From a virus (lineage: Duplodnaviria > Heunggongvirae > Uroviricota > Caudoviricetes): a stretch of DNA of 5,171 nt. The stretch is taken from the IMG/VR virus record IMGVR_UViG_2602041644_000005. One strand, 5' to 3'. The notes under the pieces were generated by a model that saw only the letters and a program-made list of their open reading frames with translations, had not been told where the DNA came from and ran no database searches. This document shows positions 1,401 to 5,171 of the stretch, in pieces. Every line of letters begins with the position of its first letter. Positions within the stretch are counted from its first letter, which is position 1. Made by a program: the position numbers and the translations under genes.

Positions 1401-2143
1401 AAATGACTAGCGTATGTGATGCGAGTAACCTTCTACCTATGGTAGAAGAACAGAAGTATCCAGATTTCGCCAAGAGACTAAACGAGCTAATGACAAACAA
1501 GGGAATTTCTGTCACCCAACTCAAAAGTCTTGTGGGCGTTACATATGAAATGGCGCGGCGATACACAATCGGCGCTGCGAAGCCTCGTGCCTCTGTCATG
1601 AATAAACTTGCATTGGCTCTGGGGGTATCAGCTTCATATTTAGAATATGGTGTTGGCGAGAGAGAAGGATGTAAGGAAATGGCAAGCATCCCCAATCCAA
1701 CAAAACCCGATGTATACAGGATAGAAGTTTTGGATCTTAGCGTTAGCGCAGGACCTGGAACCTATATGCTTTCAGACTATGTTGATGTGCTCTACGCCAT
1801 TGAGTTCACAACAGAGCATGCCCGTTCTCTTTTCGGTAATCGTTCTCAAGATGATATTAAAGTTATGACTGTAAATGGCGACAGCATGTCCCCTACTCTA
1901 GTTTCCGGAGATCGACTGTTTGTCGACATTTCTGTTCGCAACTTCCAAACTGATGGTGTTTACTCTTTCGTTTATGGTAAGACGTTCCACGTTAAACGTC
2001 TACAAATGCAAGGCAACAAACTCGCCGTTCTTTCGGATAATCCAGCCTATGAGAAATGGTACATTGATGAGAAGTCCCAAGATCAACTTTATGTTATGGG
2101 CAAAGCATTGATACACGAATCAATTAAATACAACCGGCTTTAG
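1382..2143 (+). CDS. cI: CI-like phage repressor: N-terminal XRE-type HTH plus C-terminal S24 (LexA-like) self-cleaving peptidase domain
   Basis: HTH segment FAKRLNELMTNKGISVTQLKSLVGVTYEMARRY. The C-terminal domain carries the catalytic Ser motif VNGDSMSPTL and a downstream Lys (HVKRL), as in LexA/CI/UmuD. It is divergent from the cro-like gene. The start is uncertain among in-frame ATGs at 1382, 1403 and 1439; none has an SD, which fits a leaderless PRM-type transcript. The gene symbol is used functionally, not as an identity claim. Confidence 0.85.
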   Translation: MQLLKIEMTSVCDASNLLPMVEEQKYPDFAKRLNELMTNKGISVTQLKSLVGVTYEMARRYTIGAAKPRASVMNKLALALGVSASYLEYGVGEREGCKEMASIPNPTKPDVYRIEVLDLSVSAGPGTYMLSDYVDVLYAIEFTTEHARSLFGNRSQDDIKVMTVNGDSMSPTLVSGDRLFVDISVRNFQTDGVYSFVYGKTFHVKRLQMQGNKLAVLSDNPAYEKWYIDEKSQDQLYVMGKALIHESIKYNRL

Positions 2144-2313: not shown

Positions 2314-3390
2314 ATGACAAAATCAATTTGTTTTTTTAATCATAAAGGTGGGGTAAGTAAAACCACAACAACCTTCAATCTTGGATGGGCACTTGCGGAT
2401 GAAGGCAAGAAAGTATTGATGGTTGACCTTGATTCGCAATGTAATCTAACAGGAATGGTTCTTGGCTATGAAAAGATTGATGAGGGTTTAGATTCTTTTT
2501 ATTCTAGCAGAGATAACTTAACTCTTGGACCTATTGTAGAATATTTGATTAATGGCGGACAACCTGAAGCATACCTTGAAAAAGAAACGGGAAAATTACA
2601 CCCTACACTGCATGAAAACCTTCTGCTTCTTCCCGGACATTTAGATGTTTCGGACTTAGATTCACAGATAAGTGTTTCTCTAAAAATTGCTGCTGGTATT
2701 CCTGCTACAAGAAATATACCAGGGAACCTGCCAAAAATATTACAGCTAATCGCCATGAAGAATAATATTGATTACATTCTTTATGATCTCAGCCCTAATG
2801 TTGGAGGTTTAAATGAAGTAGTTCTCATGTCAAGTGACTATTTTATCGTACCTGTAGCTCCAGACTTTTTTTGCTGGCAAGCAATTCGCTCTCTCTCAAA
2901 AAATATACCTCGCTGGCACAAAGAATTAGCATTATTTAAAGAAAATAATGATGGTAACTCTTCACAATCAATTAAAAATGCACCGCAGTTTCTAGGTATG
3001 ATTCAGCAGAGATACAGGCCGCGTAAAGGAGCACCTGTAAAATCTTTCGAAAAATGGATGGCAGCTATCCGTGATGCTGTTGATTCGATCTTAGTGCCAA
3101 ATCTAGAAAAAATTACCTGCATAATTCCACGAGATAAAGTGCAACATGCAATTAACAAAACAACAGTCAGTGGAGATTTATCAGCCTATGATCTTGCGCA
3201 TATTTCCGATTTCAACTCATTAATCGCAATAAGCCAACAACTAGCGACACCTGTTTTCTCCATCAGTGATCAGCAAATTCGCGATTCAGGGCAATTTGGG
3301 CATGCCTTAAATACAATGAAATCAAGCAGAGACGCCTTTAACGAACAATTTAAAGGGCTGGCTCAACGAGTTCTAGAACTTACAAAGTAA
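2314..3390 (+). CDS. ParA/MinD-family P-loop ATPase (deviant Walker A) with an uncharacterised C-terminal extension, 358 aa; orphan, no ParB partner
   Basis: N-terminus MTKSICFFNHKGGVSKTTTTFNLGWALADEGKKVLMVDLDSQCNLT matches the ParA/Soj/MinD deviant Walker A (KGGxxKT[TS]) and the following hhhhDxD motif. A mid-protein hydrophobic beta-strand plus Asp (YILYDLSPN) resembles ParA Walker B. AAGGA lies 9 nt upstream of the ATG. The gene is clearly more AT-rich than its neighbours (hand counts of 60-nt samples give roughly 28-45% GC against about 50% in the cro-side genes). The final about 150 aa are not recognisable. Confidence 0.85.
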   Translation: MTKSICFFNHKGGVSKTTTTFNLGWALADEGKKVLMVDLDSQCNLTGMVLGYEKIDEGLDSFYSSRDNLTLGPIVEYLINGGQPEAYLEKETGKLHPTLHENLLLLPGHLDVSDLDSQISVSLKIAAGIPATRNIPGNLPKILQLIAMKNNIDYILYDLSPNVGGLNEVVLMSSDYFIVPVAPDFFCWQAIRSLSKNIPRWHKELALFKENNDGNSSQSIKNAPQFLGMIQQRYRPRKGAPVKSFEKWMAAIRDAVDSILVPNLEKITCIIPRDKVQHAINKTTVSGDLSAYDLAHISDFNSLIAISQQLATPVFSISDQQIRDSGQFGHALNTMKSSRDAFNEQFKGLAQRVLELTK

Positions 3391-3575: not shown

Positions 3576-3633
3576 CAACAACAAATATCTACTTTTTGTT
3601 GTTGATTTTTGCTACTTTAAGTAGCAACATAAT
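3576..3633. promoter_or_regulatory. Candidate OL-type operator/promoter: perfect 19-bp dyad TTGCTACTT-T-AAGTAGCAA (3609-3627), an upstream CTACTT half-site (3589-3594), a flanking 10-bp inverted repeat (3576-3585 / 3595-3604) and CATAAT (3628-3633)
   Basis: The dyad core CTACTTTAAGTAG matches the cI-proximal repeats CTACTTAAAATAG at 11 of 13 positions. The two CTACTT half-sites here are 22 bp apart, against 23 bp at the cro/cI site. -35-like TTGCTA and -10-like CATAAT overlap the dyad. Everything is read directly from the sequence; function is inferred. Confidence 0.45.
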
Positions 3634-3736
3634 GTAAGCTATCACGGACAGGCAGGACGCCCACGAAGTAGCCGCCGGTGGCGTATGAATGACCGGATGA
3701 TTCGTTAGCAACAAAAAAGCGCCCTACCGGACGCTT

Positions 3737-3750
3737 CGCTCTTTAAAAAT
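3737..3750 (+). promoter_or_regulatory. boxA-like element CGCTCTTTAAAAAT (possible nut-site component)
   Basis: Near-identical to the boxA consensus (GCTCTTTAACAA in rrn; CGCTCTTAAAAATT in lambda nutL as I recall it). It sits about 110 nt downstream of the OL-like promoter on the plus strand. No convincing boxB hairpin follows, so this is tentative. Confidence 0.3.
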
Positions 3751-3853
3751 CAGTAACCCTCACTTTGGGCCTGGATCTGGTGGCCTGGGACGAGGTGGAA
3801 TATGAAAAGGCTCTATTGGTCGACTCATTATCCAATCCTATTATGTCTCATTT

Positions 3854-3880
3854 CTTCGGTTTCGGTGGTTTCGGCTTCGG
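3854..3880. repeat. Short hexamer repeat block CTTCGG-TTTCGG-TGG-TTTCGG-CTTCGG (mirror-symmetric)
   Basis: Read directly. It lies 23-50 nt beyond the stop of the minus-strand 164-aa gene, in its 3' flank. Confidence 0.5.
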
Positions 3881-3902
3881 AGGCACATGTCCGTGAACTG
3901 GA

Positions 3903-4397
3903 TTATGCTTGTTGGTCATCATTAATATCCGTTAGTTCATTCTCTAGAGGTAGATCTCCCGCACACCAAGCTATAAATTTTTCTTTGGTTGTTAAATCGT
4001 ACTTAGTTGGAACACCAGCAAAAATACAGGCCCGAATGAAAGCCGCTCGTTCAAGTGATTTCCATGGATTACTATCAGTATCTTGGATTTTTAAATACCT
4101 AGCTTGCAACTGATCTTCAGGAAGGGTATCAGACTCAATCAGCAGTCTTTTGTAATGCCTCGCTTGCTCTTTAGACATTCCAGCCTCTTGGCCAAACTGA
4201 TAGACCAACTGAAGAACCGAAAGTACGGCAACAAACAAACCGAAAATAAATAAATTACTGTACGGGGCGAAAACTGAAAAACCGAGAACGATTAACATCA
4301 ACGTTATTAATTTATCAATGCGAGTTAACAACGTGTAATTCATCTTCTCCAATACATAAGAGTAGTGAACATAAAATTTATAATCGTCTCTGGTCAT
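3903..4397 (-). CDS. Small inner-membrane protein (164 aa; two predicted N-terminal TM helices plus charged C-terminal domain); candidate SieB-like superinfection-exclusion or abortive-infection protein
   Basis: A 495-nt ORF in AT-rich DNA, where stop codons are frequent, so unlikely by chance. The hydrophobic hairpin LITLMLIVLGFSVFAPYSNLFIFGLFVAVLSVLQLVY is followed by a K/E/D-rich soluble region. It is oriented opposite to cI and convergent with the ParA-like gene. The start is ATG 4397, or ATG 4343 with GGAG 3 nt upstream. SieB-like is a guess from size, topology and genomic context only. Confidence 0.65.
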   Translation of the reverse strand: MTRDDYKFYVHYSYVLEKMNYTLLTRIDKLITLMLIVLGFSVFAPYSNLFIFGLFVAVLSVLQLVYQFGQEAGMSKEQARHYKRLLIESDTLPEDQLQARYLKIQDTDSNPWKSLERAAFIRACIFAGVPTKYDLTTKEKFIAWCAGDLPLENELTDINDDQQA

Positions 4398-4496
4398 ATT
4401 AGTCTCAGTTTTCCTTGGGTGGTTTTGGAGGAACTGGAGGCTTTTGTCTTAACGGCACATGCCTCTCCTCATACTTATCTACACATAGATCCATAT

Positions 4497-4553
4497 AAAT
4501 CCTTATCGTTGTTGGGGAGGGTTACATAATAACCAAATCCTTGTTGTTGGGGA
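4497..4553. repeat. Direct repeat AAATCCTT(ATC)GTTGTTGGGGA (4497-4518 and 4535-4553) flanking a small inverted repeat GGTTA-cataa-TAACC (4520-4534)
   Basis: Read directly. It lies in the non-coding region upstream (on the minus strand) of the 164-aa gene, near the right edge of the AT-rich segment. Confidence 0.5.
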
Positions 4554-4782
4554 ATAACCAGGTCCACCTCGCCTGATGTGGCTAAAAGCAGGCACATAAC
4601 AGCTAAGTATTTTCAACCAGAGAGAATCCTTAGCGTTGTGGTGAATGCGCAGGCTGATGCGCGAAAGACATTGCAGCTATTGCGGAAAAGAGCTGTTCGG
4701 CGGGGCAATTAAACGCCCGTGAGAGTCTGAAATAACCGCAAGCCGGAGATCAGCACCGGTCACCACAACAGCCACTGCTTTG

Positions 4783-4828
4783 GCGGTACCAGTTTGTACA
4801 CTTGCTTCCGGCTGGTACCGCTCTTTTT
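4783..4828 (+). terminator. Intrinsic terminator or attenuator (10-bp stem GCGGTACCAG / CTGGTACCGC, 19-nt loop, then TCTTTTT)
   Basis: Perfect 10-bp stem 4783-4792 pairs with 4812-4821, followed by a run of five T at 4824-4828. It is plus-oriented (the minus strand has no T-run after the stem). It lies about 140 nt upstream of the ATG at 4966. Confidence 0.55.
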
Positions 4829-4917
4829 ACAAAACAGAGAAGAGCATCACCGGACGACGGGCTCATAACCCAATCCATCCGGGCGGCTGCCACCGCAGGT
4901 GTTCTTCTCTGTTTTGT
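4829..4917 (+). other. Long-range inverted repeat forming a potential 20-bp RNA helix (4829-4848 with 4898-4917) that encloses about 49 nt, immediately upstream of the RBS of the 4966 gene
   Basis: ACAAAACAGAGAAGAGCATC pairs with GGTGTTCTTCTCTGTTTTGT; 17 of 17 core positions pair if one G-U is allowed, and the helix extends to 20 bp with a second wobble. A stem this long is unusual for a simple terminator and has the length RNase III recognises. Confidence 0.4.
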
Positions 4918-4965
4918 GGAGAAACCAACCGACCTTGCAGGGTCGATATGATGAGGAGCAGCAAA

Positions 4966-5171
4966 ATGGCTAGCGAACGCAGTACTGATGTGCAGGCATT
5001 TATCGGGGAGCTGGACGGCGGCGTATTTGAAACCAAAATCGGCGCAGTTCTCAGTGAAGTCGCTTCCGGTGTGATGAACACGAAAACCAAAGGTAAGGTC
5101 TCGCTCAACCTGGAAATCGAACCGTTTGATGAGAACCGTGTGAAAATCAAACACAAACTCTCATATGTTCG
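4966..5171 (+). CDS. 5' end of a hypothetical phage early protein (open to window end)
   Basis: ATG at 4966 with GAGGAG 9 nt upstream; alternative in-frame ATGs at 4948 and 4951. Translation MASERSTDVQAFIGELDGGVFETKIGAVLSEVASGVMNTKTKGKVSLNLEIEPFDENRVKIKHKLSYV has no stops and ordinary enterobacterial composition. No family recognised. Confidence 0.7.
   Translation, partial: MASERSTDVQAFIGELDGGVFETKIGAVLSEVASGVMNTKTKGKVSLNLEIEPFDENRVKIKHKLSYV

What the first reader, a model, noticed from the sequence alone, without database searches (positions are those of the whole stretch)
3737..3750. Consensus boxA (CGCTCTTTAAAAAT) without a recognisable boxB or N-like gene
The motif is a near-perfect NusB/NusE-type boxA located downstream of the OL-like promoter in the plus orientation, as expected for a nutL site. 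I cannot find a lambda- or P22-style boxB hairpin after it, and no Arg-rich N-like ORF follows; the only plus ORF overlaps the membrane-protein gene in antisense. This could be a degenerate nut site, a nut site split from its gene by the insertion of the AT-rich membrane-protein gene, or a protein-independent antitermination element.
Basis: partly seen in the sequence, partly recalled or inferred. Interest (0 to 1): 0.48.

Follow-up and report, generated by a model that had tools for sequence, protein, structure and literature searches.

The report
N-independent boxA in phage leader
The motif is a genuine, conserved docking signal for host anti-termination factors (boxA) in the early-left transcript of an E. 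coli prophage that has no N protein, and it is paired with an apparently undescribed, widely conserved structured leader RNA, which may explain how N-less lambda-like phages keep early transcription going.

Summary
It equals the lambda nutL boxA plus one extra T, which gives it the high-affinity rrn-type core GCUCUUUA. Within the window alone the match is not compelling. Comparison settles it: the same module (A6, hairpin, GCTCTTTAA[C/A]AAT) occurs in at least 120 viral contigs and 23 Enterobacterales species. The boxA is invariant, and homology breaks right after it. No boxB, no N-like ORF and no PR-side twin were found in any relative, so it is not a lambda-type nut site. It is neither degenerate nor split from an N gene.

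- The hairpin directly 5' of boxA is a terminator for a convergent, AT-rich cargo operon. It is about 5 kcal/mol stronger on the minus strand.
- At 3642-3709 there is a 68-nt structured RNA ("R1") with strong covariation. It is absent from Rfam and starts at the 5' end of PL transcripts in many phages, including E. coli K-12 e14 and T5-like phages. R1 is followed by boxA in about 40% of loci, sometimes with no hairpin between.

Best reading: an N-independent leader made of R1 plus an rrn/T7-type boxA, which protects PL transcription across untranslated antisense cargo. No function has been tested.

The parts
3612..3624 (.). OL operator (palindrome CTACTTTAAGTAG), same motif as the two OR sites at 1365-1377 and 1388-1400
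   Evidence: 6 strand-matches; 0 of 200 shuffles reach that number
3628..3633 (+). Inferred PL -10 hexamer CATAAT; transcription start inferred near 3640 (not mapped)
   Evidence: Aligns with TTGACA-N16/17-CATAAT promoters in the same place in SfIV, SfV and e14. The -35 in the window itself is poor.
3642..3709 (+). R1: 68-nt structured leader RNA. P1 is 3644-3648/3701-3705. An invariant GGC-AGGAC-GCC hairpin is at 3651-3661. P2 is 3673-3679/3692-3696 plus 3698-3699. The junction core CACGAAGUAGCC is invariant.
   Evidence: 85.5 bits. Covariation score 0.626 against 0.166 in shuffles (0/500). No Rfam match at E<=1.
3706..3737 (-). Intrinsic terminator of the convergent cargo operon: stem 3737-3716, U6 tail on the minus strand. 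The same hairpin is weak on the + strand because of a C.A mismatch.
   Evidence: called on the minus strand only.: -12.3 kcal/mol on the minus strand against -6.9 on the plus strand.
3737..3750 (+). boxA CGCUCUUUAAAAAU (8-nt NusB/S10 core GCUCUUUA at 3738-3745)
3760..4458 (-). Convergent AT-rich cargo operon. It holds a 164-aa membrane protein (3903-4397) and three small proline-rich ORFs (3760-3828, 3847-3885, 4405-4458). PL transcripts must cross it antisense and untranslated.
   Evidence: (WP_001513551.1), and 70 (GC 37.6% over 3901-4400)
4635..4769 (+). Structured part of the yfdP leader, closed by the long-range helix GUUGUGGUG (4635-4643) / CACCACAAC (4761-4769)
   Evidence: z = -6.25 for 4600-4965. 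The closing helix is kept in SfV, SfIV, ST64B and mEp460 with different interiors.
4782..4828 (+). Intrinsic terminator (GGCGGUACCAG ... CUGGUACCGC UCUUUUU) in front of yfdP. PL transcription must read through it.
   Evidence: Conserved with compensatory changes in ST64B, SfV and SfIV.
4829..4917 (+). Long hairpin (ACAAAACAGAGAAGAGC ... GUUCUUCUCUGUUUUGU) between the terminator and yfdP, which starts at 4966
   Evidence: Conserved in SfV, SfIV, ST64B and mEp460.

Best explanation
The motif is a functional rrn/T7-type boxA in the nascent PL transcript of an N-less lambdoid prophage of the SfIV/SfV/ST64B/e14 type.

The leader reads: OL/PL, then R1 (a 68-nt structured RNA starting a few nt after the transcription start), then an A6 tract with a hairpin, then boxA, then about 1.2 kb without + strand coding, then yfdPQR and on to int. 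That 1.2 kb is antisense to an AT-rich convergent cargo operon and then a structured leader containing an intrinsic terminator.

Inferred mechanism: on induction, host NusB-S10 bind boxA. Together with NusA and NusG (possibly SuhB, as at rrn) they make RNA polymerase resistant to Rho while it crosses the untranslated antisense cargo. No phage N or boxB is involved.

The hairpin just 5' of boxA is mainly the terminator of the convergent cargo operon. It is strong on the minus strand and weakened by a C.A mismatch on the plus strand, so it shields OL and cI from cargo transcription without stopping PL.

R1 is a separate, more widespread leader element. I think it acts on the elongation complex in a put-like way and helps with intrinsic terminators such as 4782-4828.

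Shown here: the sequences, their conservation, orientation and co-occurrence, the RNA structure, and the absence of N and boxB. Inferred: Nus binding, Rho protection, and the role of R1.
For: - Identity. The window boxA equals the lambda nutL boxA plus one T, which gives U8-A9 as in Ec rrn boxA. NusB-NusE recognise 8 nt and bind the rrn-type better than lambda's (PMC3177189).
- Conservation. All 16 distinct versions keep GCTCTTTAA[AC]AAT, while the loop, the linker and everything downstream vary. The module is in at least 120 viral contigs and 23 Enterobacterales species.
- Orientation. In 79 of 79 loci where both are found, boxA is on the R1 strand and 17-666 nt downstream.
- Independence from the terminator. 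R1 is followed by boxA within about 10-20 nt, with no hairpin, in T5-like Providencia phages (the identical CGCTCTTTAAAAAT) and in two other lineages. The 17-mer GCTCTTTAACAATCTGG also sits 63 nt after T7 promoter A3 and in many other phage leaders, often right after a hairpin.
- Enrichment. 52 of 124 distinct R1 loci have a boxA-like motif in sense within 800 nt, against 6 of 124 in antisense.
- Context. 13 of 14 boxA+ loci have a convergent gene next, from at least 5 unrelated families. The 600 nt after boxA are AT-richer, at 42% GC against 49%. Most boxA-negative loci start a translated ORF 30-80 nt after R1.
- No N. PMC3851460 states that SfIV, SfII and SfV lack N. PMC12315714 says the same for LLS, whose early-left operon is ST64B-like.
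- Precedent. boxA alone protects untranslated CRISPR arrays from Rho (PMC7665894).
Against: - No experiment: the transcription start, Nus binding and read-through are all untested.
- About 58% of R1 leaders, including ST64B with a ~650-nt untranslated leader and e14 with the convergent ymfI, have no boxA. So boxA is not obligatory for crossing untranslated or antisense DNA.
- rrn-type complexes are known (from memory: Albrechtsen & Squires 1990) to act mainly on Rho-dependent terminators, so boxA alone may not explain passage of 4782-4828.
- boxA can also stimulate Rho termination in some contexts, as at suhB and hisG (PMC12360218).
- The association statistics are not corrected for relatedness of the loci.
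- The -35 of the proposed PL in the window is poor.
Confidence: 0.6

Rival explanations
1. An unconventional nut site that does use a phage protein. R1, or the hairpin, would be a large boxB-equivalent bound by an unrecognised, non-Arg-rich N analogue, which assembles with the Nus factors at boxA.
For: A structured RNA lies next to boxA in the sense strand, as in nut and rrn leaders. One conserved 64-75-aa ORF family (MHKTEPKIVAP...) follows boxA in several lineages.
Against: No ORF is shared by all R1/boxA-bearing lineages. The window, e14 and the T5-like phages lack the 68-aa ORF. The 27-nt R1 core is invariant from Escherichia to Pectobacterium, Aeromonas and Providencia phages. That fits a conserved host target better than a fast-evolving phage protein.
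Confidence: 0.12
2. The boxA acts negatively, as at suhB or hisG. NusB/S10 binding would promote Rho-dependent attenuation of PL transcripts before they run antisense into the cargo, or would repress translation of a downstream small ORF.
For: boxA can enhance Rho termination depending on context (PMC12360218). In SfIV-type loci a Shine-Dalgarno sequence and ATG lie about 35-45 nt after boxA.
Against: The essential early-left genes (yfdPQR and on to xis/int) lie downstream, so attenuation would be counterproductive on induction. Most boxA contexts, including the window, have no ribosome-binding site near boxA. T7 and T5-like early leaders carry the same motif at the head of operons that must be expressed.
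Confidence: 0.1
3. The hairpin plus the U-rich boxA (UUCGCUCUUU) is a bidirectional terminator. Its + strand role would be to end a roughly 100-nt PL-derived small RNA consisting of R1, and the boxA resemblance would be secondary.
For: An A6 tract, a hairpin and a U-rich tail are arranged like a bidirectional terminator. R1 is a compact structured RNA at the 5' end of the transcript.
Against: The + strand hairpin is weak at -6.9 kcal/mol, has a C.A mismatch, and was not called as a + terminator. Most R1 copies have no terminator after them and run straight into ORFs. R1-boxA pairs without any hairpin exist.
Confidence: 0.08
4. The boxA-like string has no + strand function. It would simply be the conserved 5' flank of a mobile minus-strand terminator that travels with cargo genes.
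For: The boxA and the minus-strand terminator co-occur in the lambdoid loci: 16 of 20 boxA+ loci have the terminator against 0 of 73 boxA-negative loci. The hairpin is clearly selected on the minus strand.
Against: It is an exact 13-mer match to rrn boxA. The same motif occurs in sense, without the terminator, after R1 in three other lineages and in T7. The cargo genes differ while the module stays constant, so the module belongs to the leader and not to the cargo.
Confidence: 0.06

Closest known systems
E. coli rrn leader antiterminator (boxB hairpin, boxA, boxC; NusA/B/E/G, S4, SuhB)
   Same: The order is hairpin then boxA with 0-2 nt between them. The boxA core is identical: GCUCUUUAA, 13/13 in most relatives and 12/13 in the window. 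No phage protein is needed. It protects long untranslated RNA from Rho (PMC12360218).
   Different: There is no GU-rich boxC. The upstream hairpin is primarily a terminator for the opposite strand. It sits on a phage PL transcript and is preceded by the R1 RNA, which rrn leaders lack.
Lambda nutL (boxA-boxB plus N)
   Same: Same position, tens of nt downstream of PL/OL. The boxA is identical except for one extra U: CGCUCUU-AAAAAU against CGCUCUUUAAAAAU.
   Different: No boxB 3' of boxA, no N gene, and no nutR counterpart in the PR operon. The boxA is the high-affinity rrn type rather than the weak lambda type.
Phage T7 early-leader boxA (between promoter A3 and gene 0.3)
   Same: The relatives' module shares the identical 17-mer GCTCTTTAACAATCTGG with T7; the window itself has GCTCTTTAAAAATCAG. 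It lies in a host-RNAP early transcript of a phage without N.
   Different: T7 has no R1 and no convergent terminator next to it. As far as I know (from memory), the function of the T7 boxA has never been established.
boxA upstream of CRISPR arrays (Salmonella and others)
   Same: A stand-alone boxA protects a long untranslated transcript from Rho through Nus factors (PMC7665894).
   Different: That is a chromosomal, non-phage setting with no associated structured leader RNA.
HK022/HK639 put RNA (closest analogue for R1, not for boxA)
   Same: A structured RNA of about 65-70 nt that starts within a few nt of the PL transcription start in a lambdoid phage lacking an N-type antiterminator. It is highly conserved and lies upstream of terminators.
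   Different: The architecture differs: R1 has a closing helix P1 enclosing two hairpins, where put has two tandem stem-loops. The R1 covariance model does not detect HK022 put. There is no PR-side copy. R1 is often paired with boxA, which HK022 putL lacks.

Membership tests
boxA (NusB-NusE/S10 binding RNA element) | 8-nt core GCUCUUUA as in E. coli rrn boxA (U at position 8) | tested here: met
   3738-3745 is GCTCTTTA. The rrnB boxA was read directly. The 8-nt recognition and the U8 pocket come from PMC3177189.
boxA (NusB-NusE/S10 binding RNA element) | Lies in the sense strand of a transcript, downstream of a promoter | tested here: met
   OL/PL lie at 3612-3633. boxA is always on the strand of the leader RNA R1 and downstream of it, in 79 of 79 loci. 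The transcription start is inferred, not mapped.
boxA (NusB-NusE/S10 binding RNA element) | Conserved among homologous loci while the flanks diverge | tested here: met
   16 of 16 distinct versions keep it. Homology to SfIV ends 2 nt after the motif.
boxA (NusB-NusE/S10 binding RNA element) | Bound by NusB-S10 and changes termination in a nus-dependent way | not testable with these tools
   Needs binding assays and genetics.
Lambda-type nut site | boxB hairpin (5-bp stem, GNRA-like pentaloop) a few nt 3' of boxA | tested here: not met
   The sequence after boxA (CAGUAACCCUCACUUUGGGCC) offers only a 3-bp stem and is not conserved. Downstream sequence differs in every lineage.
Lambda-type nut site | Arg-rich N-family protein encoded by the phage | tested here: not met
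   None is annotated in the prophage. There are no Pfam hits for the small ORFs, no Arg-rich ORF after boxA in about 60 contexts, and the Arg-rich-motif scan of the prophage gave only spurious ORFs. PMC3851460 reports no N in SfIV, SfII or SfV.
Lambda-type nut site | Second site (nutR) in the PR operon | tested here: not met
   There is no GCTCTT-type boxA on the PR-sense strand of the PR operon and no second R1.
rrn-type antiterminator leader | Hairpin (boxB) immediately 5' of boxA | tested here: met
   The hairpin at 3717-3736 ends 0-1 nt before boxA. The rrnB boxB ends 2 nt before boxA. Caveat: the hairpin is 5 kcal/mol weaker on this strand than on the opposite one.
rrn-type antiterminator leader | GU-rich boxC (UGUGUGGG) downstream of boxA | tested here: not met
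   Absent from 3751-3800. Present 17 nt after boxA in rrnB.
HK022 put RNA (for R1) | Sequence and structure similarity: two tandem stem-loops | tested here: not met
   The R1 model gives no hit with E<1 at HK022 putL. R1 has a closing helix and two internal hairpins.
HK022 put RNA (for R1) | Begins at the 5' end of the PL transcript | tested here: met
   R1's P1 starts 10-16 nt after the -10 hexamer in the window, SfIV, SfV, ST64B, ZF40, e14 and PSTCR5.
HK022 put RNA (for R1) | Binds the RNAP beta' zinc-binding domain and suppresses termination without protein factors | not testable with these tools
   Needs in vitro transcription and rpoC mutants.
Intrinsic terminator (minus strand) | GC-rich hairpin followed by a U-tract | tested here: met
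   9-pair stem plus UUUUUUGUUG on the minus strand, -12.3 kcal/mol. A convergent gene follows in 13 of 14 loci.

The most novel reading that the evidence does not exclude
R1 plus boxA would be a new, N-independent early antitermination leader used by a large group of phages that lack N: SfV, SfIV, ST64B, LLS, e14, mEp237, ZF40 and even virulent T5-like phages. In this reading R1 is a new class of nascent RNA that acts directly on host RNA polymerase or Nus factors. It would be functionally like put but structurally unrelated, and boxA would add Rho resistance. That would answer the open question of how N-less lambdoid phages read through their early terminators. It is testable in E. coli K-12, because e14 carries an intact R1.
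Probability: 0.4. Interest if true: 0.8.

Novelty: new variant of a known kind. Interest (0 to 1): 0.62.

Why it matters
Lambdoid phages are the textbook case of processive antitermination, yet a large group of them (SfV, SfII, SfIV, ST64B, LLS, e14-type) has no N. Recent work could only guess that they 'may have a put-like mechanism' (PMC12315714).

This locus shows what their PL leaders actually contain. There is a consensus host-type boxA without boxB or N. Immediately upstream is a 68-nt structured RNA with strong covariation that is not in Rfam and is conserved from Escherichia to Aeromonas and Providencia phages.

If these two elements are the antitermination device, that would be a third solution alongside N/nut and put. 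It also shows a tidy design. A terminator that is strong in one direction only insulates the immunity region from a convergent cargo gene, and the boxA next to it may help the phage's own transcript cross that cargo.

The K-12 e14 copy makes the hypothesis directly testable.

Tried and rejected
- Rfam scan of the whole window at E<=1 gave no family. This also rules out AgvB (RF02702), which I suspected for the CACAACA-plus-terminator stretch at 4761-4828.
- Single-sequence folding of 3636-3760 was uninformative (z = +0.6). Only the alignment revealed R1.
- Homology of R1 to HK022 put: only short shared strings, and no covariance-model hit.
- A PR-side twin of R1 or boxA: none.
- N-like proteins: Pfam, PADLOC and an Arg-rich-motif scan were negative. 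The 44-aa Arg-rich ORF at 4578-4712 has no Shine-Dalgarno sequence and its frame is not conserved.
- My first ORF-orientation script used a wrong boxA regex and naive ORF calls. It was redone.
- Low-scoring R1 copies look like decayed prophage copies and gave no extra covariation for the small hairpin.
- Full-text searches for the R1 core sequence, or for a described leader RNA in ST64B, SfV or ymfJ, found nothing. King et al. 2011 on put-like RNAs is not held in the library.
- C>G windows as a crude indicator of Rho loading sites are only modest in 3751-4780, so the Rho sensitivity of this stretch remains an inference.

Full report
**Where the window comes from.** The window is 100% identical to an E. 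coli prophage (NZ_CP142930 and about 100 other genomes). The prophage is integrated between int and late genes and is of the SfIV/SfII/SfV/ST64B/e14 type.

Its layout is as follows:
- PR points left: a cro-like gene at 1332-1069, then a CII/YmfL-like gene at 1040-483.
- The cI repressor is at 1439-2143 (+).
- A ParA-like ATPase is at 2314-3390 (+).
- An intergenic region follows.
- A 164-aa membrane protein lies on the minus strand at 3903-4397.
- A 570-nt non-coding stretch follows.
- yfdP starts at 4966, followed by yfdQ, yfdR and on to int.

The annotated prophage has a Q antiterminator but no N.

**The observation.** CGCTCTTTAAAAAT is at 3737-3750 (+), once only. It is downstream of a real operator. 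CTACTTWAARTAG occurs at 1365-1377 and 1388-1400 (OR, between cro and cI) and as a perfect palindrome at 3612-3624 (OL). That gives six strand-matches, and 0 of 200 shuffles reach six. A CATAAT -10 follows at 3628-3633.

Within the window alone the motif is not significant, because the 9-mer core turns up in 21 of 200 shuffles. I read the comparators directly. Lambda nutL is GACGCTCTTAAAAATTAAGCCCTGAAGAAGGGC. The rrnB leader has a boxB hairpin, then 2 nt, then TGCTCTTTAACAATTTATCAG, then boxC TGTGTGGG. The window motif is therefore the lambda nutL boxA with one extra T. That T gives it the U8-A9 of the rrn boxA, which is the version NusB-S10 bind more tightly (PMC3177189).

**Comparative evidence that the boxA is real.** SfIV has a different immunity region with its own consensus PL. 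It shares with the window a module of about 110 nt that begins about 15 nt after the promoter and ends 2 nt after boxA. Homology breaks on both sides. SfIV's boxA is GCTCTTTAACAAT, identical to rrn.

- I anchored a scan on an upstream sequence unrelated to boxA and found 16 distinct hairpin+boxA versions. All keep GCTCTTTAA[A/C]AAT, while the hairpin loop, the linker and the downstream sequence vary.
- A scan for the module itself saturated at 120 viral contigs. It also found 23 species representatives, essentially all Enterobacterales.
- The 17-mer GCTCTTTAACAATCTGG is also the boxA of T7. It lies 63 nt after promoter A3 and before gene 0.3.
- The same 17-mer occurs in many other phage early leaders, often directly after a hairpin.

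**What it is not.** There is no boxB after it, and the sequence following boxA differs in every lineage. I examined about 60 distinct downstream contexts and none starts an Arg-rich N-like ORF. Pfam finds nothing in the small ORFs. An Arg-rich-motif scan of the whole prophage gives only spurious frames. The SfIV genome paper states that SfIV, SfII and SfV lack N (PMC3851460). The PR operon has no boxA and no second leader element. Relatives without cargo after the leader (SfV, ST64B, ZF40, e14) lack the boxA module entirely. This argues against a nut site that was split from N by an insertion.

**The hairpin in front of boxA.** The promoter/terminator scan calls 3737-3716 a terminator on the minus strand only, with nine pairs followed by UUUUUUGUUG. 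The hairpin folds at -12.3 kcal/mol as minus-strand RNA but only -6.9 as plus-strand RNA. The reason is that a U.G wobble on one strand becomes a C.A mismatch on the other. The same asymmetry holds in five of seven versions.

- In 13 of 14 boxA+ loci with distinct downstream sequence, the longest ORF in the next 700 nt is on the minus strand. These ORFs belong to at least five unrelated families. They include the window's 164-aa membrane protein, SfIV gp36, and proteins of 171 aa, 173 aa and 71 aa (a Zn-finger protein).
- Among loci that have the upstream leader RNA, 16 of 20 boxA+ loci have a strong minus-strand terminator there. None of the 73 boxA-negative loci does.

So the hairpin ends a convergent cargo operon and shields OL and cI from it, while being weak in the PL direction.

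**The leader RNA R1.** The first half of the shared module (window 3642-3709) matches 58 phage records from many genera. An alignment of 101 distinct versions shows the following:
- A closing helix P1.
- An invariant GGC-AGGAC-GCC hairpin.
- An invariant single-stranded CACGAAGUAGCC.
- A helix P2 with a conserved loop GGCRUAYGAA.

Of all cells, 90% are paired against 66% in shuffles. The covariation score is 0.626 against 0.166 (0/500 shuffles), and slid controls reach at most 0.14. P2 is 98% paired, with all five pairs changed on both sides. A nearly invariant G.U pair (99 of 101) fixes the structure to the + strand.

Rfam has no match. A covariance model finds exactly one copy per phage, always just after PL. 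It finds none on the PR side and none in HK022, whose put RNA has a different architecture.

R1 is also present elsewhere:
- E. coli K-12 cryptic prophage e14: NC_000913 1,202,109-1,202,177, 73 bits, between the repressor ymfK and ymfJ, just after TTGACA-N17-CATAAT.
- mEp237, in front of kil and exo.
- The virulent T5-like Providencia phage PSTCR5, with compensatory P1 and P2.

**R1 and boxA belong together.**
- In 79 of 79 module-bearing loci with an R1 hit, boxA is on the same strand and 17-666 nt downstream.
- 52 of 124 distinct R1 loci have a boxA-like motif in sense within 800 nt, against 6 of 124 in antisense.
- In PSTCR5 and its relatives, R1 is followed after 8 nt by AACGCTCTTTAAAAAT. 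This is the window's exact 14-mer, with no hairpin in between.
- Two further temperate-looking lineages have R1, then 15-17 nt, then CGCTCTTTAACAAT.

The boxA is therefore not just the flank of a minus-strand terminator. It is a recurrent partner of R1 in the sense strand.

**Why boxA here.** After boxA, PL transcription must cross about 1.2 kb with no + strand coding. The first part is antisense to the cargo (GC 37.6% over 3901-4400). The second part is a highly structured leader (z = -6.25) with a conserved intrinsic terminator at 4782-4828.

Across loci, the 600 nt after boxA have a median GC of 42%. In boxA-negative loci the 600 nt after R1 have 49%. These counts are not corrected for phylogeny. 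In most boxA-negative loci a translated ORF starts 30-80 nt after R1.

Untranslated, unstructured RNA is the substrate of Rho. A stand-alone boxA protects rRNA and CRISPR transcripts from Rho (PMC7665894, PMC12360218). I therefore infer that this boxA recruits NusB-S10 to make PL transcription Rho-resistant across the cargo.

This is inference. ST64B and e14 cross untranslated or antisense stretches without any boxA. boxA can also enhance Rho termination in some contexts. From memory, rrn-type complexes act mainly on Rho-dependent terminators. R1 is therefore the better candidate for reading through 4782-4828, but nothing tested here shows what R1 does.

**Verdict.** It is an rrn/T7-type, N-independent boxA that forms a composite leader with a previously undescribed structured RNA. 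In this lineage it is interleaved with a one-way terminator for a convergent cargo operon. On its own the boxA is a new member of a known kind. The R1-boxA leader is a new variant of processive-antitermination leaders, and it is directly testable in E. coli K-12.

Noticed in passing
NC_000913.3 1,202,109-1,202,177 minus strand (L308 6110-6178): E. coli K-12 cryptic prophage e14 carries an intact copy of the R1 leader RNA (73 bits). It lies between the repressor ymfK and ymfJ, right after a consensus TTGACA-N17-CATAAT promoter. No RNA feature is annotated there.
   Followed up: partly
L311 1982-2075 (Providencia phage PSTCR5); also L312, L313, L316: Virulent T5-like phages have R1 followed after 8 nt by CGCTCTTTAAAAAT, at the head of an operon leading toward the 'DNA transfer protein' genes. 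One copy lies in an annotated terminal repeat of phage PR1.
   Followed up: partly
window 3760-3828, 3847-3885, 4405-4458 (all minus strand): Three tiny proline-rich ORFs flank the 164-aa membrane-protein gene: MSRPIEPFHIPPRPRPPDPGPK, MPPKPKPPKPKK and VPLRQKPPVPPKPPKEN. A related motif, PIIPNH.PP.PRPP, is kept in homologous cargo operons (L026, L072). They may be polyproline leader or stalling peptides, or small proteins.
   Followed up: partly
window 4600-4965 (+): The yfdP leader is extremely structured (z = -6.25). It has a long-range helix at 4635-4643/4761-4769 with a variable interior, an intrinsic terminator at 4782-4828, then an 89-nt hairpin at 4829-4917. The scaffold is conserved in SfV, SfIV, ST64B and mEp460, and partly in e14. 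It has no Rfam match.
   Followed up: partly
window 2314-3390 (+): A ParA/AAA_31-family ATPase sits between cI and OL, in the position of lambda rexAB. It has a weak PADLOC hit to the candidate defence protein PDC-M28B (E = 6e-9 over 38 residues only). It is possibly lysogen-expressed cargo or a defence gene.
   Followed up: no
L002 4778-4984 (+) (SfIV, unannotated): A 68-aa ORF with a strong Shine-Dalgarno sequence starts 44 nt after boxA (MHKTEPKIVAPGYTNEEIYEW...). Diverged homologues of 64-75 aa follow boxA in several other lineages (L126, L130, L211), each converging on a ~145-aa minus-strand gene. It has no Pfam or PADLOC hit.
   Followed up: partly
L270, L281, L230 (viral contigs): Sequences very like HK022 put stem I (GTCGAACGGCGCGACTTTAAACCATGCGTCGG) are followed immediately by GCTCTTTAACAATCTGG. 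boxA therefore also pairs with put-like leaders.
   Followed up: no
L003 4150-4500 (mEp460); L131, L141, L185, L216: A second, unrelated PL-leader type (GGAATGTGCAAG ... CCAGCGTGGCG ... GGTGTGAC.CCTCGGAAGAGACGAGG) replaces R1 in mEp460. In other contigs it precedes the same hairpin+boxA module. This suggests several interchangeable leader RNA classes.
   Followed up: no
L307 (lambda) 585-560 minus strand, compared with window 3649-3664: The first ~20 nt of the lambda PL transcript (AUCAGCAGGACGCACUGACC) resemble the 5' part of R1 (ACAGGCAGGACGCCCACGA). This may be a remnant of shared ancestry of PL leaders, or chance.
   Followed up: no
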